IMG/VR virus record: IMGVR_UViG_3300022198_000015
Direction: 5' to 3' (one strand)
DNA: 20,000 bases
From: an uncultured virus (IMG/VR IMGVR_UViG_3300022198_000015)
Lineage: Duplodnaviria; Heunggongvirae; Uroviricota; Caudoviricetes
A program made the position numbers and the translations under genes. Under the pieces are notes generated by a model. The model saw nothing but the letters and a program-made list of their open reading frames with translations. It was not told the origin of the DNA and searched no databases. This document shows, piece after piece, positions 1,332-12,874 of the stretch (the stretch's first letter is position 1; every line of letters starts with the position of its first letter).

Positions 1332-2444
1332 CTAGATTACAGATACGTACCAGCCGTCAGAGCTAGAATGTATTAACCAGCGTTTTAATAAGTTTTGTCG
1401 AGTATACCTTACAGCCTTACCATCAGTGCTACCACGCTTAGGATAACCACCGTTAATAAGATCTAATTCACCATAAGGGTCATGAACCCAGAAGTGTGTC
1501 TGGTCGTATCCAATTAAAGTAACCCAGTGACCACCTCCAGTAGGAGAGCTGATCGGGCCTTTATGCAGAATACCGATGGGCACCGGAACCTGACGATCTA
1601 ATAATGTGATCAAATCTTTTTCGCAGCCGTCCGTATGGAACTCTGCACTAGTGAATCCTAAGGCATGCGCCGTAGAAATTTGTGCAACAGACGATACAGT
1701 ATCACCACGTTTAAATACTTCATTCAAGTACCAGTCATCATCACCTGCAATAGCCTCAGGATCTAGGTAGTCCAAAGCCATCGCCATTGCTGAGCTAAAA
1801 CACATACGCTCGCCATGTCCTTCCTTGCTATCTCGTTGATAGAAGTAAGGCACATCCAATGGGAATTTAAAAACACCGACTTTAGGGGGGCTAAACAATT
1901 CTTTGAATTTAGCGAACACTTTAGGATCGCTATTAGCCTCTAGGTAATCAAAAGCAGCATCTTGGTGAGGATAAAATTTGTAATGTTCAGCAGCCCGACG
2001 TAAAAAGCCAGGAGATGTAGCCGGGTTACTAATGGGCATTGTGTGGTACCTGTTCATCAAATCAACTAACTTCTTAGAATACCCAGGATCAGTAGCATAA
2101 CCTTCCTGCTTCAAAAGAAAAGCGCACTCTTCCCGAGTTTTAGCACGGTTAACTCCTTCGTAACCTTTGTAATTTTTATACCATTTATTGACTAAATCTA
2201 TGACACAATCCTCTGCATTATAGTAATCTTTAAAAGTATCTTGAATAGTAATAAATTTACCATTTACCCATTCTTGTGTGCTAACTGTAGTACCTGGAGT
2301 TCCTTTAATACCAAAAAAATTATTTTTACCACTAGTATATGCACCGAAACCTGATTCGCATGCCCATTGCGCGGCTACACATTCAGGAAACTTAGCTCCC
2401 GCTTTTTTAGCATAGCCGTAGATCTTTTCCCAAGAAGTTTTCAT
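1332..2444 (-). CDS. Endolysin: N-terminal GH73 glucosaminidase plus C-terminal C39-like cysteine peptidase
   Basis: GH73 motifs AAQWACESGFG, NNFFGIKG and GYATDPGY. C39-like motifs LDVPYFYQRDS, RMCFSSAMAM, GGGHWVTLIGYD and VHDPYG. Start moved to ATG 2444 (MKTSW), just after the upstream stop. Confidence 0.88.
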   Translation of the reverse strand: MKTSWEKIYGYAKKAGAKFPECVAAQWACESGFGAYTSGKNNFFGIKGTPGTTVSTQEWVNGKFITIQDTFKDYYNAEDCVIDLVNKWYKNYKGYEGVNRAKTREECAFLLKQEGYATDPGYSKKLVDLMNRYHTMPISNPATSPGFLRRAAEHYKFYPHQDAAFDYLEANSDPKVFAKFKELFSPPKVGVFKFPLDVPYFYQRDSKEGHGERMCFSSAMAMALDYLDPEAIAGDDDWYLNEVFKRGDTVSSVAQISTAHALGFTSAEFHTDGCEKDLITLLDRQVPVPIGILHKGPISSPTGGGHWVTLIGYDQTHFWVHDPYGELDLINGGYPKRGSTDGKAVRYTRQNLLKRWLIHSSSDGWYVSVI

Positions 2445-2446
2445 AA

Positions 2447-3841
2447 TTACCATGTGGATAAAGGAGCGCGTTTCCAAACATTATCACTAATGCATGTATA
2501 AATATAATTTGTATCATACCGAATCTCTCCAGCAGCTCCAGGGGAGGTTGCAGTAGCCGGAGGATTATTAGTAGCTACAGAAGTGTGCTCCCAGCGATTT
2601 GTGATACTAGACCATTTAATAACATCAGCATTATGCGGGCTACTAGTTTGCACATCATGCAAATCTGCTAAGCGCGAACCAGTACTCCAACGAACCATTA
2701 AAGTGCCATTATTTTTACTAGAAATAACAGCAGCCACCGGCAACTTTAAATTAGGAGCATTTGGTTCTGTAATAGTAAAACCACCTGGCACACTTGGATT
2801 ACACCATAAAATAGAACCCTGAGGATAAATACTAGTGTCAATTTTTTTAAGCTTACCATAGCTAATAGCAAATCCATCTTCAGAGGGATTAATTGCCTCA
2901 GCTGTCACACCAAAAAACACGTAACCAGGGTATGTACCGTCAGCTACCATAGGAGCCACTTTAATTCGACCACTTGCCCCTAAAGTACCCGTAAACATTA
3001 CGGCTGTGCCTTTTGGAATAACTGAAACAGTGTCATTACGCACAAGACTAAAAGTATCCTGACCCAGGTGCATATGAACAGCCTCATCAAGGCCTAGAAC
3101 CAGAGTACTCTCATCTATCTCCCAATGTATATTCCCTTGGGCAGGATCATACTGCTCTACTTCAGTATTAAAAGTAATACTATCAAGATTGATATCACTA
3201 GGAACACCAGAACGATTATGCAAAACTTGAGGGATATAACGATTTGTCCATCCAGTACCATCAAACGTAAGTACTTGACCTTTAGTTAATTCTAGCTCAT
3301 CAAAATTAACATCCTGCAAATCTTCTAACTTGGCCTCAGTAGCCACCATATCCAGACCATCACGACCGTCACGGCCATCCCTACCATCCTTTCCAGCAGG
3401 CCCTGGAAGCCCCATAGGCCCAGGTGCTCCAGCAGGCCCCCTAGCCCCGTCAGAGCCGCTCTTAAGGCTAGTCGCGTACTTGATGGCGCTGCCGATCTCT
3501 TCCCGTTGTCGGTACAGCTGCTGGCGCTCCTCTACGGCATCAATTAACTCAGGCGTGGCAAATTGTATTATTTTTAACGTAGACTCAAACCATGTACCAC
3601 CAATCTTATCTTTTATAGCGGCTTTTAATACTTCTAAATCAGTATCCAAAACACCATACACCCTGATTGTCCAAACAGCCTCTACACCATCCAAATACGG
3701 AATCTCAGATATAAATATCGAAGACCCTAGTAAAAATTTAATATCAGCATCGCGAGTAATTTCAATATTATCAACTAATTCGCTAATTAAAATGTCTGCT
3801 TGCAGAGCTTTTTTGATCTCTTTAGCACTAGAAAAGTACAT
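2447..3841 (-). CDS. Collagen-repeat fibre/virion structural protein
   Basis: Gly-X-Y run, two L.DL.DV...GQVL.(F/W)D..W repeats, and C-terminal GEIRYDTNYIYTC...WKRAPLSTW shared with other fibre genes in this window. Confidence 0.75.
   Translation of the reverse strand: MYFSSAKEIKKALQADILISELVDNIEITRDADIKFLLGSSIFISEIPYLDGVEAVWTIRVYGVLDTDLEVLKAAIKDKIGGTWFESTLKIIQFATPELIDAVEERQQLYRQREEIGSAIKYATSLKSGSDGARGPAGAPGPMGLPGPAGKDGRDGRDGRDGLDMVATEAKLEDLQDVNFDELELTKGQVLTFDGTGWTNRYIPQVLHNRSGVPSDINLDSITFNTEVEQYDPAQGNIHWEIDESTLVLGLDEAVHMHLGQDTFSLVRNDTVSVIPKGTAVMFTGTLGASGRIKVAPMVADGTYPGYVFFGVTAEAINPSEDGFAISYGKLKKIDTSIYPQGSILWCNPSVPGGFTITEPNAPNLKLPVAAVISSKNNGTLMVRWSTGSRLADLHDVQTSSPHNADVIKWSSITNRWEHTSVATNNPPATATSPGAAGEIRYDTNYIYTCISDNVWKRAPLSTW
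3355..3456 (-). repeat. Collagen-like Gly-X-Y coding repeat
   Basis: GSDGARGPAGAPGPMGLPGPAGKDGRDGRDGRDG; 9-bp periodicity and locally GC-rich. Confidence 0.85.
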
Positions 3842-5580: not shown

Positions 5581-5715
5581 TCAGAAAACACCAGGAAAAA
5601 TTTGACCAGTTACAAAATACGCCCCAACGGCTGCAATAAAACCAACCATAGCAAGGCGTCCATTTAAACGCTCAGCTCGCTCATAATGAGTCTCGTGAAC
5701 ATTACGATCCGACAT
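5581..5715 (-). CDS. hli: High-light-inducible protein
   Basis: AERLNGRLAMVGF chlorophyll-binding motif and C-terminal TGQIFPGVF. Start corrected to ATG 5715 (44 aa), 22 nt after the motif. Confidence 0.95.
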   Translation of the reverse strand: MSDRNVHETHYERAERLNGRLAMVGFIAAVGAYFVTGQIFPGVF

Positions 5716-5736
5716 AATAACACATAAAAGGTGTCT

Positions 5737-5745
5737 TAGTGTTCC
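5737..5745 (-). promoter_or_regulatory. Promoter-like motif GGAACACTA
   Basis: Between the psbA terminator and the hli start. Confidence 0.7.
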
Positions 5746-5748
5746 AAT

Positions 5749-5774
5749 AAAAAACCACCCCATATAGGGGTGGT
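5749..5774 (-). terminator. Rho-independent terminator after psbA
   Basis: ACCACCCC-TATAT-GGGGTGGT followed by TTTTT. Confidence 0.88.
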
Positions 5775-5796: not shown

Positions 5797-6876
5797 TCAA
5801 CCAATAACCGGAGCTTTTAAAGCCACGGGAGTAAATTCCGTAGCTGCAAGGTCCAGAGGGAAATTATGAGCATTGCGCTCGTGCATCACCTCAAAACCTA
5901 AATTAGCCCGATTCAGCACATCTGCCCAGGTATTAATTACATTATTTTGAGTATCCAGCAGAGACTGATTAAAATTAAATCCATTTAAATTAAACGCCAT
6001 AGTAGATACGCCAAGAGCAGCGAACCAAATACCCACAACAGGCCATGCTGCAAGGAAAAAGTGGAGACTACGAGAATTGTTAAAGCTAGCGTATTGAAAA
6101 ATAAGACGACCAAAGTAACCATGAGCAGCTACAATATTATAGGTTTCCTCTTCTTGGCCGAATTTATATCCATAATTTTGGCTAATAATTTCAGTAGTTT
6201 CACGCACCAGGCTGGAGGTCACCAGCGAACCGTGCATGGCGGAGAACAGGCTGCCGCCGAACACACCGGCCACACCCAGCATGTGGAAGGGGTGCATCAG
6301 AATGTTGTGCTCAGCCTGGAACACCAGCATGTAGTTGAAGGTGCCGCTGATACCCAGAGGCATACCATCAGAAAAAGAACCTTGACCAAAAGGATAAACA
6401 AGGAATACTGCAGTTGCCGCAGCCACAGGAGCCGAATACGCGACGCAGATCCAAGGCCGCATCCCTAATCGATAGCTAAGTTCCCATTCGCGTCCCATGT
6501 AAGAGAAGACGCCAATAAGGAAGTGGAAGACGACCAATTGGTACGGGCCCCCGTTATAGAGCCATTCGTCAAGGCTATTAGCTTCCCAAATTGGATAGAA
6601 ATGTAGTCCGATTGCGTTACTGGAGGGGACAACTGCTCCAGAGATGAGATTGTTTCCATAAAGCAATGCACCGGCAACAGGTTCACGGATACCGTCAATA
6701 TCGACGGGAGGAGCAGCCACAAAGGCGACAATGAAGCAAATGGTGGCAGCCAGCAGGGTGGGGATCATCAGCACACCGAACCATCCCACATACAGGCGGT
6801 TGTTGGTGGAAGTCACCCATTGACAAAACTGTTCCCAAATAGAAAAACTAGGACGTGTTGCAATAGTAGCAGTCAT
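5797..6876 (-). CDS. psbA: Photosystem II D1 protein
   Basis: Full-length 359 aa with [35 protein letters not shown] and [13 protein letters not shown]. No intron. Confidence 0.99.
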
Positions 6877-6889
6877 ATAACAAATGAAG

Positions 6890-6991
6890 GTAATTAAACC
6901 AGTAGGGAGCTGGTAGTTTAATATTCCCGCACTACCCTCAAGCGCGATATAAGGGGCGTATTTTACTTCCTAAAAGCCCCGGTTAAGGAAG
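6890..6991 (-). ncRNA. Structured psbA leader, PhotoRC-II-type RNA motif
   Basis: Three stems: CUUCCU/AGGAAG, CGCGCU/AGUGCG and ACCAG/CUGGU. Two loop pairings: GGGGC:GCCCC and AGGG:CCCU. The layout matches cyanophage psbA leaders as I recall them. Confidence 0.78.
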
Positions 6992-6997
6992 ATAATA

Positions 6998-7006
6998 CAG
7001 TTTACC
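6998..7006 (-). promoter_or_regulatory. Promoter-like motif GGTAAACTG upstream of the psbA leader
   Basis: TTGGTAAACTGTATTA (6993-7008, minus) is identical to 753-768 (plus). Confidence 0.75.
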
Positions 7007-8706: not shown

Positions 8707-8730
8707 AAAAAAAAGCCCCCCGAAGGAGGC
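8707..8730 (-). terminator. Rho-independent terminator after the major capsid gene
   Basis: GCCTCC-TTCG-GGGGGC followed by T8. Confidence 0.9.
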
Positions 8731-8752
8731 CTTTATCTAGTTAATGCTTAGA

Positions 8753-9643
8753 TCAGACGCTAGCAGTAGCATCAATACCAGCCAGGCGAGCAGCAGCACG
8801 ACCATTGATCAGAGCCAGACCGCAGTACCATTCAACGCGGGTGATTAGTTGAGGCTGGGTGTGCGATTCGCCAAGCTCACGCACGTTCACGCCACCGTTC
8901 TGAATACCAGTCAGATGATCGTTGCCGAAGGACACGACATACAGATCTTGGGCGCTGGGGGTACCATCGAGGATCGCCACGTTCTTGTGGTCACGATCAA
9001 GCTCCAGCACAGGAATGCCGGAGTAGCTGAGCTGCTGGTAGCCGAACTCGGTACGCTCGATATCGATCTGACCATTAGCACGGGCGTGCTTGCTCAGATG
9101 ACGACGCAGGGACTTGGAACAGACAATGTACTTGCTACCGCCCTGGGCATCCACGTTGTCAATAGCCTCATCCAGCTTGTTCAGATCCAGAGCACCGCCA
9201 CCGTTGGCGAAGTACTGGGAAGAACCAGACTTGATGCGAGCAGCCAGACCATCAAACTCAGCCGGCGACTGGTTGGAGTCACCATTGATGAACAGAGCTT
9301 CCCAAGCCAGACGCATGGCACGCACACGGGCCTGGATCTGATAAGCCTTGGCCTCGGGACCTTCCAGCTCAACGATAGCGCGATCAACTTTGATGTCGCC
9401 ACCGAACAGCTTCAGGCTCTCGGACTGCTGGCTCACTTCAGCATAGCTCTCAGCCAGAGAACCATTATAGTTACGGAAGCCCACATCCGGCAGCGACTCT
9501 TCACGCTTCCAGAACAGACCGTTGCCTTCGATAGAACGGAAGGGCAGAGCCGACAGCAGCTGACCAGCAGCTAATTCGGTAATAACAGCAAGCTCTTGAA
9601 CATTACGAGCATGCTTCTTAGCTTGAAGCAGGGTTAAAGCCAT
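8753..9643 (-). CDS. Major capsid protein
   Basis: LPFRSIEGN...REESLPDVGFR, FGGDIKVDR, FINGD...EFDGL, TRVEWYCGLA...AAARL. Lies downstream of the scaffold gene, with a strong SD, biased codons and a terminator. Confidence 0.9.
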   Translation of the reverse strand: MALTLLQAKKHARNVQELAVITELAAGQLLSALPFRSIEGNGLFWKREESLPDVGFRNYNGSLAESYAEVSQQSESLKLFGGDIKVDRAIVELEGPEAKAYQIQARVRAMRLAWEALFINGDSNQSPAEFDGLAARIKSGSSQYFANGGGALDLNKLDEAIDNVDAQGGSKYIVCSKSLRRHLSKHARANGQIDIERTEFGYQQLSYSGIPVLELDRDHKNVAILDGTPSAQDLYVVSFGNDHLTGIQNGGVNVRELGESHTQPQLITRVEWYCGLALINGRAAARLAGIDATASV

Positions 9644-9680
9644 AGTAAAAAACTCCTTTTAGATGAAATGAACAAAGATC

Positions 9681-9770
9681 AGGGTGATTCGTTTAAACAG
9701 CATCGCACTGTATCAAACGCGACACCCTTTCCTGTCCACCTCGTCACGATTAGGAGGGTTAGGGTATCTC
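9681..9770 (-). ncRNA. Candidate structured 5' leader of the capsid mRNA
   Basis: GAUACCCU/AGGGUGUC stem; CGUUUGA-U-ACAGU-GCGAU-GCUGU-UUAAACG hairpin; alternative pairing partner CACCCU. Confidence 0.6.
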
Positions 9771-9776
9771 TATAAA

Positions 9777-9785
9777 TAGAATACC
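9777..9785 (-). promoter_or_regulatory. Promoter-like motif GGTATTCTA (capsid)
   Basis: Between the scaffold terminator and the structured leader. Confidence 0.72.
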
Positions 9786-9795
9786 AATTAATAAT

Positions 9796-9818
9796 AAAAA
9801 ACCCCTAAAATTAGGGGC
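9796..9818 (-). terminator. Rho-independent terminator after the scaffold gene
   Basis: GCCCCTA-ATTT-TAGGGGT followed by TTTTT. Confidence 0.8.
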
Positions 9819-9842
9819 ATTTTGGTAAACTAGGGGTTACTA

Positions 9843-10568
9843 TTAACTAAAAGCTCGCTGGAATAATTGATCAGGATCCAGACTATCCAGGTCTTCAGTA
9901 GGCATACCATTAGCATCAGTTCCACCGTAGCCGAGGCCAGCACCAGAACCCTTGGTTCCTTTAAAGAAAGCACCGTAGATAGGATGATGCTTAAAACTGG
10001 AGACAAACTCTTCTGGCGAAATGCGCTTACCAGATTCTTTATCCAACACTGGATCGCCCTGCAGATCCACTACAGTAAGAGAGCCATCAGATTCTTGACG
10101 GAAACGACCACCCAACTGATCAGCCAGCATATCAAAGAACGATACGCCATCAGCCGCATCAGTCCGACCACCAGCTGCAAAGAAAACTTTCTCTAGAGCA
10201 TACCGCTTCTGAAATTCCTGCATCCGACGCTCAGCAGCCTCAGCACGAGTAGCAGCCTCTTCCGCTTGCTTAGAGTACTTCAATTCAATAGCTTCTTTCG
10301 CTTCACCATACTGGGCTTGTAATTGAGCAGCCCGTGCCACTTCCTCCTGCAATTTAGCATATTCATCAGGATTAATATTTGCAAAACGCTCAAGTTGAGC
10401 GGCGCGTTCTTTAGCTTCTTTTTCATAATTTTTACGAGTCTCACGTTCGGCCTTCAGGGCTTTCATGAGATTTTCAACTTCACCTTCAGTAAAGACTTTG
10501 CCCTTCTCGGGCGTAACAGTAGTCTCAACTTCGGCCACAGGAGTTTGAATAGATTCCTCAGACATCAC
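9843..10568 (-). CDS. Capsid scaffolding protein
   Basis: Long E/K/A-rich coiled coil and C-terminal FFKGTKGSGAG tail, directly upstream of the capsid gene. Start is GTG 10568 or ATG 10565. Confidence 0.8.
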   Translation of the reverse strand: MMSEESIQTPVAEVETTVTPEKGKVFTEGEVENLMKALKAERETRKNYEKEAKERAAQLERFANINPDEYAKLQEEVARAAQLQAQYGEAKEAIELKYSKQAEEAATRAEAAERRMQEFQKRYALEKVFFAAGGRTDAADGVSFFDMLADQLGGRFRQESDGSLTVVDLQGDPVLDKESGKRISPEEFVSSFKHHPIYGAFFKGTKGSGAGLGYGGTDANGMPTEDLDSLDPDQLFQRAFS

Positions 10569-11013: not shown

Positions 11014-11022
11014 TAGTCTACC
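11014..11022 (-). promoter_or_regulatory. Promoter-like motif GGTAGACTA, overlapping the upstream Trp and stop codons
   Basis: 20 nt upstream of ATG 10994. Confidence 0.65.
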
Positions 11023-11587
11023 AAGTACTTAAAGCAGCTCTTTTCCAGGTATTTATAGCTATACAAATATACAAATAACCCGCTCCAAATCTTATTTCAC
11101 CTTCTTCGCCTGTATCTGTGCTTAAATTAGGAGGTGCCACAGTTGTTATTTTTTCTAAAACTACTTCTTTATTTATAAATTGTGTATTCACTACATCCCA
11201 ACTTAAGATATCACCAGAAACTAAAGAAGTAGTACTAATATCTACATCATTAAAAACATCAATACTATAATTGTAAGCACTTGTAACAGGATCAATGTAT
11301 ACAATAGGTGGACCACTACGCCATTGCCATACAGGTCCCATATAGACAATAGGTACCCACGCAGTAACTACAGGATTTTGAAAATCAACATCTTGGTATC
11401 TTTCTAAAGAATGAGGCTTTATATTTAAAGGTGTTAAATTACTCCAAGTCTGATTACCATCACCAACTCTTGCATAATTAGTATCAGAACTAATCGCAAA
11501 TTCACCAGGCTCAAGAACTAATGTACTATTTTGCCATACACTATAAGTATCTATTTTTTGTTTAAATCTAGCGGAAGTAGTAGTCAT
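11018..11587 (-). CDS. Short fibre-like protein with an Mtd_N-like N-terminal domain
   Basis: VLEPGEFAISSDTNYARVGDGNQTWSNL; C-terminal GEIRFGAGYLYIC...WKRAALSTW. Confidence 0.75.
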   Translation of the reverse strand: MTTTSARFKQKIDTYSVWQNSTLVLEPGEFAISSDTNYARVGDGNQTWSNLTPLNIKPHSLERYQDVDFQNPVVTAWVPIVYMGPVWQWRSGPPIVYIDPVTSAYNYSIDVFNDVDISTTSLVSGDILSWDVVNTQFINKEVVLEKITTVAPPNLSTDTGEEGEIRFGAGYLYICIAINTWKRAALSTW

Positions 11588-11593
11588 ATTATC

Positions 11594-12874
11594 TCACCAA
11601 GTATTTAAAGGGCTACGTACCCACGTATTAGTGGCCGTGCATACGTACACATAAGAACTATCATACCTGATCTCTCCTGTTGAACCTGTATCAGTAGCAC
11701 TAGTTGGGGCCGCTGTATTAGTTATCTTTTTACCTGTAATATCACCAAGAATAAATTGTGAGGTGGCTCCATCCCAAACTAAAGTTTGCCCATTTGAAGG
11801 AATTCCAGTTATATTTACGTCTGAATGTTCTTTTATGCTATAAATTAATGTAGGACTAGTAACTGAACTACTAGGAACTTCTACTAAAGGAGGGGTAAAA
11901 TCTGTAGTATATCTAGCTACTGCTTTTGTTATTCTAAAGTCATCTATATATCCTTTAAATCCTACAGAAGTGACAGTATTAGTTGTCGTACTAGTACCCA
12001 GATACATAATAGGCGGACTAGATGAATATATAGGTAAGCTACCATTTGCAGTATCTTCAGCTATTTTAACGCCATTAATATAAACGCGCACAGAAGTACT
12101 ATCTTTACATGCCGATAAATAAACCCAAGTATTAACTGGAATGCTGTTTCTAAAAGCCGTAGGAGGGGATAAACTTGCTGAAGGAGCTGAGCCTGAATAA
12201 CTCCAAGTAACTACTGGATAATATGTAGTAGAGGTACTCTTAACAAAATATATTGAAAAAGGAATAGAGTAGAAAAACTGCATATTAGTGGAACTAGTAG
12301 CTTCTACATATACCCATGTGTCTATAGTTAAACCAGCAGACCCGAAAGGAAATCCTTGATTATTAGCAGCAAGTACTCGTAAACCTTGAGCCGTAGCTAT
12401 AGTATTGTTAAAAAATCCTGAAGTATAACCGTATTTAACTTGTGTTGTAGAATGTATAGGAGTTCCTTGTATAGTTAAAGGCGTATTAAAACTACTAGAG
12501 TCATTAAAATTACTAGTCCCAGCTACTCCATTAAACTTCAAAAGTAATGTAACATCGTCATAATAAGTATCTGTACTAGGGTCTAAATAACCAATAACAG
12601 GACCAGGAACCCATTCATTTGTGTTACTATTATATATTAATGTGGTGCCTTCGCTAGGAGTACTGGAAATATTAACATCAGCTATATCATTAATACTAAT
12701 AGGTTCTACTTCTACATATAAAAGACTGTTCCAAAGTGAGTTACCATCACCTATTTTAACTTTATTAGTATCGCTTTCTACCCCAAGTTCTCCAGCTAGT
12801 AATAAAGGATTTACAGTAGCCCAATTCGCTGCTGTATCATATCTTTGTTGCTGCCGAGCATCTATAACAGTCAT
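11594..12874 (-). CDS. Fibre protein with Mtd_N-like and LamG/ConA-like domains
   Basis: QQRYDTAANWATVNPLLLAGELGVESDTNKVKIGDG; DDVTLLLKFNG...TIDTWVY...FKGYIDDFRITKAVARYTTDFTPP; shared C-terminal motif. Confidence 0.82.
   Translation of the reverse strand: MTVIDARQQQRYDTAANWATVNPLLLAGELGVESDTNKVKIGDGNSLWNSLLYVEVEPISINDIADVNISSTPSEGTTLIYNSNTNEWVPGPVIGYLDPSTDTYYDDVTLLLKFNGVAGTSNFNDSSSFNTPLTIQGTPIHSTTQVKYGYTSGFFNNTIATAQGLRVLAANNQGFPFGSAGLTIDTWVYVEATSSTNMQFFYSIPFSIYFVKSTSTTYYPVVTWSYSGSAPSASLSPPTAFRNSIPVNTWVYLSACKDSTSVRVYINGVKIAEDTANGSLPIYSSSPPIMYLGTSTTTNTVTSVGFKGYIDDFRITKAVARYTTDFTPPLVEVPSSSVTSPTLIYSIKEHSDVNITGIPSNGQTLVWDGATSQFILGDITGKKITNTAAPTSATDTGSTGEIRYDSSYVYVCTATNTWVRSPLNTW

What the first reader, a model, noticed from the sequence alone, without database searches (positions are those of the whole stretch)
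9645..9772. Switch-like structured leader on the major capsid mRNA, with twin GYGAY loops
Seen in the minus-strand RNA: P1 is GAUACCCU (9761-9768) paired with AGGGUGUC (9721-9728), enclosing UCC-UAA-UC[GUGAC]GA-GGU-GGA. P2 is CGUUUGA-U-ACAGU[GCGAU]GCUGU-UUAAACG (9690-9719). Both apical loops read GYGAY. The AGGGUG strand of P1 can instead pair with CACCCU (9681-9686), extending P2, so two exclusive folds exist about 25 nt before the AAGGAG SD. I cannot assign it to a named RNA family. Known: phage P22 scaffolding protein regulates its own synthesis post-transcriptionally. Inference: a protein-binding element or switch tuning capsid output, possibly to scaffold level.
Basis: partly seen in the sequence, partly recalled or inferred. 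Interest (0 to 1): 0.7.

Follow-up and report, generated by a model that had tools for sequence, protein, structure and literature searches.

The report
Conserved switch-like capsid mRNA leader
The stretch before the major capsid gene of this cyanobacterial virus encodes a conserved folded RNA leader, found in no RNA family library searched, with two look-alike hairpins that probably toggles between two shapes to control how much capsid protein is made.

Summary
The window is an S-CBS2/S-CRES-like cyanosiphovirus.

**Setting.** The capsid gene (8753-9643, minus strand) is bracketed by intrinsic terminators. It has a -10-like element and a leader of about 130 nt.

**Distribution.**
- A covariance model built from 61 related leaders finds one strong copy per phage record, always just 5' of the capsid start. 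It scores 67.5 bits (E 5e-16) in the window.
- It matched 68 of 74 loci of a sister capsid clade.
- It matched none of 153 picocyanobacterial genomes searched.
- Rfam 15 has no match.

**Structure.**
- Both hairpins covary strongly: 5 of 6 and 7 of 8 pairs change on both sides.
- Both loops read G-N-G-A-Y in 85 of 94 sequences.
- The invariant GGGUG tract can pair with a 5' ACCC (88.8% of cells paired) or with a 3' CACCC (98.5%).
- The 3' half of hairpin 1 also co-evolves with the pyrimidine-rich stretch ahead of the ribosome site (0 of 100,000 permutations as good). The signal in any single lineage is modest.

**Reading.** This is most likely a bistable translational leader. One fold shows both loops and frees the ribosome-binding region. 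The other fold buries that region. The trigger (protein, metabolite or folding kinetics) is not known. The proposed link to the scaffold protein was not tested.

The parts
9843..10568 (-). Head scaffolding protein gene, upstream neighbour
   Evidence: phrog_206, E 3.1e-27
9792..9818 (-). Intrinsic terminator after the scaffold gene: stem-loop 9818-9801 followed by a T-run
   Evidence: Terminator scan, 7 pairs then TTTTTATTAT. GC-rich hairpin plus T-run also seen at this position in many relatives.
9778..9786 (-). -10-like promoter element TGG-TATTCT. Family consensus is T-N-G-G-N-A-N-N-N-T-A. The inferred transcript start is about 9771-9770.
   Evidence: Conserved block in the alignment of upstream regions. 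The sigma-70 two-hexamer scan found no full promoter. The start site is inferred from spacing only.
9667..9772 (-). The conserved leader RNA motif (covariance-model match)
   Evidence: R1 match, 67.5 bits, E 5.3e-16, the only significant hit in the window; the next best has E 0.33
9761..9768 (-). P1 5' arm GAUACCCU (family: ..ACCC)
   Evidence: In A3, columns 6-12 pair with 49-55 in 88.8% of cells. The outer pair is GC in 29 and AU in 18 sequences.
9736..9757 (-). Hairpin 1: CCUCC-UAA-UC[GUGAC]GA-GGUGG, loop 9747-9743
   Evidence: Family hairpin 1 has changes on both sides in 5 of 6 pairs and is 91.1% paired. Loop is G-N-G-A-Y in 92 of 94. The window's copy is weak.
9721..9728 (-). Switch tract AGGGUGUC; GGGU is invariant in the first 61 sequences
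   Evidence: Invariant columns G46-T49. Pairs either with the 5' ACCC or with the 3' CACCC.
9690..9719 (-). P2 hairpin with loop GCGAU (9706-9702)
   Evidence: Apex has changes on both sides in 7 of 8 pairs, base in 3 of 3. Loop is G-N-G-A-Y in 87 of 94.
9681..9686 (-). CACCCU, the 3' partner of the switch tract
   Evidence: A3 columns 49-53 pair with 100-104 in 98.5% of cells, with one-sided changes only (GC 59, GU 33 at the outer pair)
9659..9680 (-). Pyrimidine-rich segment (GAUCUUUGUUCAUUUCAUCUAA) that can pair with the loop, 3' arm and linker of hairpin 1
   Evidence: Minimum-free-energy (MFE) structures. Co-evolution tests.
9641..9658 (-). SD AAGGAG (9658-9653) and capsid AUG (9643-9641). 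In the window's MFE fold, AGGAG pairs with CUCCU (9756-9752).
   Evidence: The CUCCU:AGGAG pairing is specific to this window and a few relatives; it is not family-wide.
8753..9643 (-). Major capsid protein gene
   Evidence: phrog_212, E 8.9e-71. Pfam GP7 (E 5.5e-13) and SU10_MCP.
8711..8734 (-). Intrinsic terminator after the capsid gene
   Evidence: 10-pair stem followed by TTTTTATGGGT

Best explanation
This is a phage-specific cis-acting leader RNA at the 5' end of a capsid-only transcript. The gene is set up as terminator, -10 element, leader, capsid gene, terminator. The leader can adopt two mutually exclusive folds.

**Fold B, proposed ON state.** The 5' ACCC tract pairs with GGGUG (P1). 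Hairpin 1 forms, and with hairpin 2 it displays two identical G-N-G-A-Y loops side by side. The 3' CACCC, the pyrimidine-rich segment and the ribosome-binding site are left free.

**Fold A, proposed OFF state and the predicted ground state.** GGGUG pairs with the 3' CACCC instead. The loop, 3' arm and linker of hairpin 1 pair with the pyrimidine-rich segment. This makes one long helix capped by hairpin 2. It removes loop 1 and buries the ribosome landing region and, in some members, the SD.

Fold B is transcribed first. I propose that a factor recognising the twin loops holds it and so licenses capsid translation. The most likely factor is a dimeric phage or host protein; a small ligand is less likely.

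**Shown:** conservation, position, covariation of both hairpins, retention of both partners of GGGUG, and family-wide co-evolution of the alternative helix.

**Inferred:** the transcript start, the effect on translation, the direction of the switch, and the existence and identity of the trigger.
For: **Family and position.**
- One strong copy per record in 5 of 5 large phage records; every other match has E >= 0.058.
- 68 of 74 loci of a sister clade match at E < 0.01, each ending 13-22 nt before the capsid start.
- 94 of 99 sources match at E < 0.05.

**Covariation on the 94-sequence alignment.**
- 88.2% of cells are paired, against 34.7-53.0% when partners are slid by 1-3 columns.
- The covariation score is 0.563 against 0.246 in shuffles; 0 of 500 shuffles reach it.
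- 369 of 1999 cells are G-U pairs. Pairing would fall to 69.8% on the opposite strand, so the structure belongs to the sense RNA.

**The two partners of GGGUG.**
- P1 is 88.8% paired, with a GC (29) to AU (18) exchange at its outer pair.
- GGGUG:CACCC is 98.5% paired.

**The alternative helix.**
- Fold A is the MFE in 58 of 61 leaders. It is more stable than the best P1-containing fold by a median of 6.8 kcal/mol (range -15.2 to +4.4).
- Native pairing of the two segments beats permuted pairings: 1 of 20,000 permutations is as good with 18 clusters, and 0 of 100,000 with 29 clusters.
- With composition controlled, 27 of 29 cluster representatives pair better than their own shuffled partner (mean z -1.06, Wilcoxon p 8e-7).

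**Effect on the ribosome site.**
- Enforcing P1 plus hairpin 1 raises the predicted unpaired probability of positions -20 to +6 from 0.43 to 0.57. It rises in 70 of 94 leaders and falls in 3.
- The pyrimidine-rich segment goes from 0.40 to 0.63.

**Loops.** Both loops read G-N-G-A-Y in 85 of 94 sequences.
Against: - No experiment or probing data exists; everything rests on sequence comparison and energy models.
- The long-range complementarity is modest in any one lineage. Only 4 of 29 representatives reach z < -2, and 2 have z > 0.
- In one large clade the predicted long helix stops short of the SD.
- Neither P1 nor GGGUG:CACCC has more than one pair with changes on both sides. Their exclusivity could be a by-product of three invariant tracts kept for another reason.
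- In two large clades the 5' ACCC can pair with an adjacent GGG instead. That would permit a static three-hairpin fold with no competition.
- The clusters in the permutation tests are not phylogenetically independent.
- No G-N-G-A-Y hairpins are enriched elsewhere in the window: 6 found against 5.1 +/- 2.3 in shuffles. So there is no sign of a wider regulon for a loop-binding protein.
- No RNA-binding domain was found in the 27 neighbouring proteins scanned.
Confidence: 0.5

Rival explanations
1. A static structured leader. Two or three stable hairpins at the very 5' end protect the abundant capsid mRNA from 5'-end-dependent decay, and/or serve as a fixed protein-binding platform. There is no conformational switching. 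GGGUG simply closes hairpin 2 by pairing with CACCC.
For: - GGGUG:CACCC is the best-kept helix, at 98.5% paired, and RNAalifold chooses it.
- In two large clades the 5' ACCC has its own local GGG partner.
- The motif sits at the inferred 5' end of a capsid-only cassette between terminators.
- The long-range signal per lineage is modest.
Against: - It does not explain why the hairpin 1 3' half and the downstream segment co-evolve.
- It does not explain why P1 pairing potential is kept in clades that lack the local GGG, or the GC/AU exchange.
- A simple stabiliser does not need two invariant loop sequences.
Confidence: 0.22
2. A riboswitch. A small molecule or ion binds the two-hairpin fold and stabilises P1 against the competing helix, tying capsid translation to a host metabolite. 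This shares the switch mechanism of the best explanation but names a different trigger.
For: - The architecture matches translational ON riboswitches. The sensing part is conserved, and the variable downstream partner co-evolves with it.
- Invariant nucleotides concentrate in loops and junctions.
- One copy per genome and no loop regulon.
- Other cis-regulatory RNAs, some classed as riboswitch candidates, are reported from cyanophages (PMC2864571, passages on manA, wcaG and PhotoRC-II seen).
Against: - No ligand is suggested by gene context; a structural gene is an unusual riboswitch target.
- Two identical solvent-exposed loops are more typical of protein sites.
- Not found in 153 host-family genomes searched, whereas most riboswitch classes occur in cells.
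Confidence: 0.12
3. An RNase processing site. The long irregular helix of fold A is cut by host RNase III (or RNase E cuts nearby). This matures the capsid mRNA and releases its ribosome site, as recalled for T7 late mRNAs and the lambda N leader.
For: Fold A is a long imperfect duplex that includes the region upstream of the SD, and it is the predicted ground state in 58 of 61 leaders.
Against: - It does not explain the invariant twin loops, or the strong covariation of hairpin 1, which fold A destroys.
- The helix is interrupted and modest in many lineages.
- No cleavage data. The RNA-library material available was assembled contigs, which cannot show ends.
Confidence: 0.08
4. A promoter-proximal antitermination RNA of the HK022 put type. 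The nascent two-hairpin RNA acts on RNA polymerase so that it reads through the terminator after the capsid gene.
For: Two hairpins lie directly downstream of the inferred promoter. A terminator follows the capsid gene, with further genes beyond it.
Against: - It does not account for co-evolution with the segment next to the ribosome site.
- There is no similarity test for put, which is recalled and not in the searches run.
- The element always abuts the capsid start.
Confidence: 0.04

Closest known systems
Translational ON riboswitches with P1 / anti-P1 competition (for example the add adenine riboswitch; recalled)
   Same: A 5' strand and a 3' strand compete for one central tract. The fold that forms first frees the ribosome site, and the more stable one occludes it. 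The conserved sensing part is joined to a variable, co-evolving expression part.
   Different: No ligand is known. The conserved core is two side-by-side hairpins with identical loops, not a junction pocket. There is no Rfam match. It is found only in phages among the sequences searched.
Guanidine-II riboswitch (mini-ykkC; recalled)
   Same: Two tandem hairpins carry the same short conserved loop upstream of a start codon.
   Different: The loops here are G-N-G-A-Y, not ACGR. The two loops cannot form a Watson-Crick kissing pair, and their N positions do not covary. No Rfam hit even at E <= 10.
Phage translational operators and autoregulation (MS2 coat-protein operator, T4 RegA and gp32, P22 scaffolding protein; recalled)
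   Same: Post-transcriptional control of a phage gene through a structured site near the start codon. Sequence-specific hairpin loops fit protein recognition.
   Different: The site lies 40-125 nt upstream rather than over the start codon. There are two loops. The proposed action is activation by holding an open fold. No protein partner has been identified.
Lambda boxB / N and HK022 put RNAs (recalled)
   Same: Promoter-proximal phage hairpins. boxB is a five-base loop of the GNRA-like kind, as G-N-G-A-Y could be.
   Different: No boxA-like partner was looked for or seen. The element is tied to the translation start rather than to terminators, and the loop sequence differs.
PhotoRC-II RNA (RF01717), present in this same window
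   Same: A cyanophage cis-regulatory leader RNA of unknown mechanism, lying directly upstream of one highly expressed gene (psbA).
   Different: Different sequence and structure. The capsid-leader model does not hit it, and Rfam's PhotoRC-II model does not hit the capsid leader.

Membership tests
Any Rfam 15 family | Score at or above the family's gathering threshold | tested here: not met
   The whole window at gathering thresholds gave only PhotoRC-II at 6913-7003. Positions 9550-9950 at E <= 10 gave only weak hits. Most lie on the terminator and promoter region, 9765-9916. The only one inside the leader is mir-962 at 19.9 bits against a gathering score of 70.
Guanidine-II (mini-ykkC) | Two hairpins, each capped by an ACGR tetraloop | tested here: not met
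   The loops are GUGAC and GCGAU in the window, and G-N-G-A-Y in 85 of 94 relatives. The ACGR consensus is recalled.
Riboswitch (general) | Direct, specific binding of a small ligand that changes the fold | not testable with these tools
   Only the two-fold architecture could be examined.
Riboswitch (general) | Conserved sensing domain coupled to mutually exclusive pairing with an expression platform | tested here: inconclusive
   Both partners of GGGUG are kept (88.8% and 98.5% paired), and the alternative helix co-evolves. However, helix-level covariation for the switching helices is weak.
RNA thermometer (ROSE type) | Match to the ROSE model; SD paired in a hairpin with characteristic mismatches | tested here: not met
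   ROSE_2 scored 20.2 bits against a gathering score of 65, and the hit lies at 9789-9851, on the terminator and outside the leader.
Protein-bound translational operator | Specific binding of a regulatory protein to the hairpin loop(s) | not testable with these tools
   No partner is known. No RNA-binding Pfam domain was found among the 27 window proteins scanned.
Leader-peptide (upstream ORF) control | A conserved short reading frame in the leader | tested here: not met
   Loop 1 contains AUG in 69 of 94 sequences. The frames run 2 to 34 codons with scattered stops, and 12 run on into the capsid region.

The most novel reading that the evidence does not exclude
The leader is an orphan riboswitch-like sensor, unique to a large group of cyanobacterial siphoviruses, that gates translation of the major capsid protein. 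Its input would be a cellular or assembly-state signal: a metabolite, or a phage or host protein read through the twin G-N-G-A-Y loops. It would be the first conformational RNA switch known to control a phage structural gene.
Probability: 0.3. Interest if true: 0.85.

Novelty: new variant of a known kind. Interest (0 to 1): 0.64.

Why it matters
Capsid protein is the largest protein investment of an infection, yet how tailed phages set its output after transcription is poorly known. This is a strongly covarying RNA element that is not in Rfam. It is present in more than 150 environmental and cultured cyanosiphovirus sequences and is always attached to the capsid gene. That makes capsid-level translational control directly testable. 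At least three cultured phages carry it (S-CBS2, S-CRES1, S-CRES3), so experiments are feasible. If a ligand or protein trigger exists, it would show how phage particle production is coupled to host state in abundant aquatic cyanobacteria. It would also add a new twin-loop architecture to the known RNA switches.

Tried and rejected
**Rfam.** Searches at gathering thresholds and at E <= 10 found nothing relevant.

**Other copies or a regulon.**
- The model found no second copy in the window with filters off, nor in 5 large phage records.
- Hairpins with G-N-G-A-Y loops are not enriched in the window: 6 found against 5.1 +/- 2.3 in shuffles.

**Host origin.** 0 of 2 and 0 of 151 genomes of the family of a Cyanobium genome matched. 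This means not found in those searched, not absent. The larger call used stricter filters.

**Upstream ORF starting at the loop AUG.** Not conserved.

**Loop-loop kissing.** The N positions of the two loops do not covary.

**Resemblances checked by eye only.** K-turn, C/D-box and hammerhead-like features ("GUGAUGA", "CUGA") are not conserved across the clades shown. Rfam also gave no hit.

**DNA-level element.** Disfavoured, because 369 G-U cells would be mismatches on the other strand.

**Expression data.**
- RNA-library runs were available only as assembled contigs.
- They cover the capsid gene, and one 197-nt contig (4 differences) reaches into the leader as far as 9739.
- They cannot show the transcript start. 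Parts without cover say nothing.

**Promoter motif TNGGNANNNTA(N7)AG.** 2 matches in the window against 0.99 expected, which is not significant.

**Prior description.**
- Two literature searches found no paper that describes this leader.
- The catalogue of 10,006 viral candidate RNAs built from IMG/VR (PMC10690425) may contain it unnamed. I saw passages of the main text and part 1 of one supplementary table.
- Searches for five of my contig numbers and for 'S-CBS2' (or 'capsid') found nothing in the tables that could be read.
- The files holding alignments and gene contexts could not be read.

**Earlier notes of this scan.** None for this place.

Full report
**What is there.** On the minus strand the window carries, in order:
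- a head scaffolding gene (10568-9843; phrog_206);
- an intrinsic terminator (stem 9818-9801 plus T-run);
- a short AT-rich stretch with a -10-like TGG-TATTCT (9786-9778);
- a leader of about 130 nt;
- the major capsid gene (9643-8753; phrog_212, E 8.9e-71; Pfam GP7 and SU10_MCP);
- a second intrinsic terminator (8734-8711).

The capsid gene therefore looks like a one-gene cassette. The phage is a cyanosiphovirus. The nearest named records are Synechococcus phages S-CRES1 and S-CRES2 (71% DNA identity over the whole 701-nt query), S-CBS2 and S-CRES3. The window also carries psbA, with the Rfam PhotoRC-II RNA in front of it.

**The observation.** The details are in the observation check. The 151-nt stretch folds far better than shuffles (z = -4.99, 0 of 200 as good).

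**Relatives.**
- A capsid-protein scan of viral contigs returned 132 relatives, of which the best 80 were kept.
- I added three phage records. I left out two loci that start inside the capsid gene (L073, L074) and two with under 200 nt upstream (L040, L055). After removing duplicates this left 61 distinct leaders.
- They align from a conserved TAG near the inferred transcript start down to the start codon.
- A covariance model (R1) built from them finds a single strong match in the window, at 9772-9667 with 67.5 bits and E 5.3e-16. The next best match has E 0.33 with filters off.
- It finds one strong match in each of 5 of 5 large phage records; all other matches have E >= 0.058.
- A second capsid scan, started from a distant member, gave 74 new loci. 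Of these, 68 matched at E < 0.01, each ending 13-22 nt before the capsid start.
- Of the six without a match, one has no upstream DNA (L159). The other five show the motif by eye but score below threshold.
- In S-CBS2 another gene lies between the scaffold-like gene and the capsid gene. It is annotated as hypothetical in one record and as an HNH endonuclease in the other. The model match lies 19 to 121 nt before the capsid start.
- The model matched none of 2, and none of 151, genomes of the family of a Cyanobium genome. This is a sample and was searched with strict filters.
- Rfam 15 has nothing.

**Anatomy of the family.** From 5' to 3':
- ..ACCC;
- a variable spacer;
- hairpin 1, with loop G-N-G-A-Y;
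- a purine-rich linker;
- the invariant tract GGGUG;
- a long irregular hairpin 2, whose loop is again G-N-G-A-Y;
- CACCC (variants CAUCC, CACCU, UACCC);
- a G-poor, pyrimidine-rich segment;
- a short SD and then AUG.

Numbers on the 94-sequence model alignment:
- Hairpin 1 has changes on both sides in 5 of 6 pairs and is 91.1% paired.
- The hairpin 2 apex has such changes in 7 of 8 pairs, and its base in 3 of 3.
- For the whole structure 88.2% of cells pair, against 34.7-53.0% with slid partners.
- The covariation score is 0.563 against 0.246 in shuffles (0 of 500 as high).
- This alignment was fitted to the model. The unfitted MAFFT alignment gives the same picture for both hairpins.
- Loop 1 is G-N-G-A-Y in 92 of 94 sequences, loop 2 in 87, and both in 85.
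- The first G and the last pyrimidine could themselves pair (GU 71 and GC 21 in loop 1; GU 47 and GC 40 in loop 2). The loop may therefore be a three-base N-G-A loop rather than a five-base one.
- G-U pairs make up 369 of 1999 cells. Only 69.8% of cells would pair on the opposite strand, so the structure belongs to the sense RNA.

**Two folds.** GGGUG has two possible partners.
The outer pair is GC in 29 sequences and AU in 18. The remaining variation is one-sided, such as AU to GU and UG to CG.
- With the 3' CACCC, 98.5% of cells pair, with one-sided changes only.

- In 58 of 61 leaders the MFE fold uses GGGUG:CACCC.
- It extends that helix by pairing the loop, 3' arm and linker of hairpin 1 with the pyrimidine-rich segment, and in some members with the SD.
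- In the window this gives CUCCU (9756-9752) paired with AGGAG (9657-9653).
- This fold (A) is more stable than the best fold containing P1 (B) by a median of 6.8 kcal/mol, with a range from -15.2 to +4.4.

I tested whether the long-range complementarity is selected.
- Across 18 sequence clusters, native pairings of the two segments beat permuted pairings; 1 of 20,000 permutations was as good.
- With the sister clade added (29 clusters), the native mean is -11.6 kcal/mol against -9.55 for cross-cluster pairs, and 0 of 100,000 permutations are as good.
- Against shuffles of each lineage's own downstream segment, 27 of 29 representatives do better (mean z -1.06, Wilcoxon p 8e-7). Only 4 reach z < -2 and 2 are above 0.
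- The signal is therefore consistent across the family but modest in any single lineage.
- Enforcing P1 plus hairpin 1 raises the predicted unpaired probability of positions -20 to +6 from 0.43 to 0.57. It rises in 70 of 94 leaders and falls in 3. The pyrimidine-rich segment goes from 0.40 to 0.63.

**Interpretation.**
- I read this as a bistable translational leader. The fold transcribed first (P1, hairpin 1, hairpin 2) shows two identical loops and leaves the ribosome landing region open. The more stable fold removes loop 1 and buries that region.
- The twin invariant loops are unique to this leader within the phage. They are the obvious recognition surface for whatever holds the open fold. 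I favour a dimeric protein, with a small ligand second and purely kinetic control third.

Arguments against a switch:
- The two switching helices have almost no double-sided covariation.
- Two clades offer the 5' ACCC a local GGG partner, which allows a static fold.
- In one large clade the long helix stops short of the SD.

The static stabiliser or platform reading therefore remains a serious rival. An upstream ORF starting at the loop AUG is rejected.

**This window's copy.** It is a divergent member. Its spacer reads CCCUCC where most relatives have GGG. Its hairpin 1 has 3 non-canonical pairs out of 6 in the model alignment. Its score of 67.5 bits is low for its clade, where the highest scores reach about 100 bits.

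**Expression.** RNA-library runs were available only as assembled contigs. They cover the capsid gene, and one contig reaches the leader as far as 9739. This fits the leader being transcribed with the gene, but it shows neither the start nor the strand.

**Novelty.**
- The element matches no Rfam family, and two literature searches found no description of it.
- A 2023 catalogue of 10,006 candidate viral RNAs built from the same contig collection (PMC10690425) may list it without a name. I saw passages of the main text and part 1 of one supplementary table. The alignment and gene-context files could not be read.
- The kind of element, a structured leader with competing folds, is well known. The twin-loop architecture, the target gene and the phage-only distribution are new.

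Noticed in passing
window 6913-7003 (-), before psbA at 5797-6876 (-): Rfam PhotoRC-II RNA (RF01717), 46.5 bits against a gathering score of 39, lies directly upstream of the phage psbA gene (phrog_182, E 1e-194). It is a second, unrelated cis-regulatory leader in the same phage.
   Followed up: partly
window 9778-9786 (-) and the same position in relatives: A conserved T-N-G-G-N-A-N-N-N-T-A block (a -10 hexamer with conserved A2 and T6 and a TGG-like extension) lies 6-8 nt before the motif's first conserved bases and directly after a terminator. No -35 element is visible. It may be a dedicated late promoter. The pattern is not enriched elsewhere in the window.
   Followed up: partly
L002 1843-2319 (S-CBS2, between the scaffold-like gene and the capsid gene): S-CBS2 carries an extra gene between the scaffold-like gene and the capsid gene. 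It is annotated as hypothetical in one record and as an HNH endonuclease in the other. It looks like a mobile insertion that left the leader attached to the capsid gene.
   Followed up: no
window 11594-12874 (-) and 11018-11587 (-): Two adjacent tail-fibre-like proteins both start with an Mtd_N (major tropism determinant N-terminal) domain. The larger also has a Laminin_G_3 domain. Whether a diversity-generating retroelement is present was not examined.
   Followed up: no
window 5581-5763 (-): A 60-aa ORF downstream of psbA has a weak, sub-threshold Chlorophyll a/b-binding match (E 0.0014, 19.6 bits against a cut-off of 22.3). It is probably a high-light-inducible (hli) gene like the one S-CBS2 carries near its capsid gene.
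   Followed up: no
window 1332-2477 (-): Likely lysin with two catalytic domains: Glucosaminidase (E 4e-20) plus a Peptidase_C39-like domain (E 1e-9).
   Followed up: no
leader loops, A3 columns 29-34 and 77-82: Because the loop is usually G-N-G-A-U followed by G, most copies contain AUG (69 of 94 in loop 1) and often GUG or UGA inside the loops. The reading frames are not conserved, but mimicry of a start codon was not excluded.
   Followed up: partly
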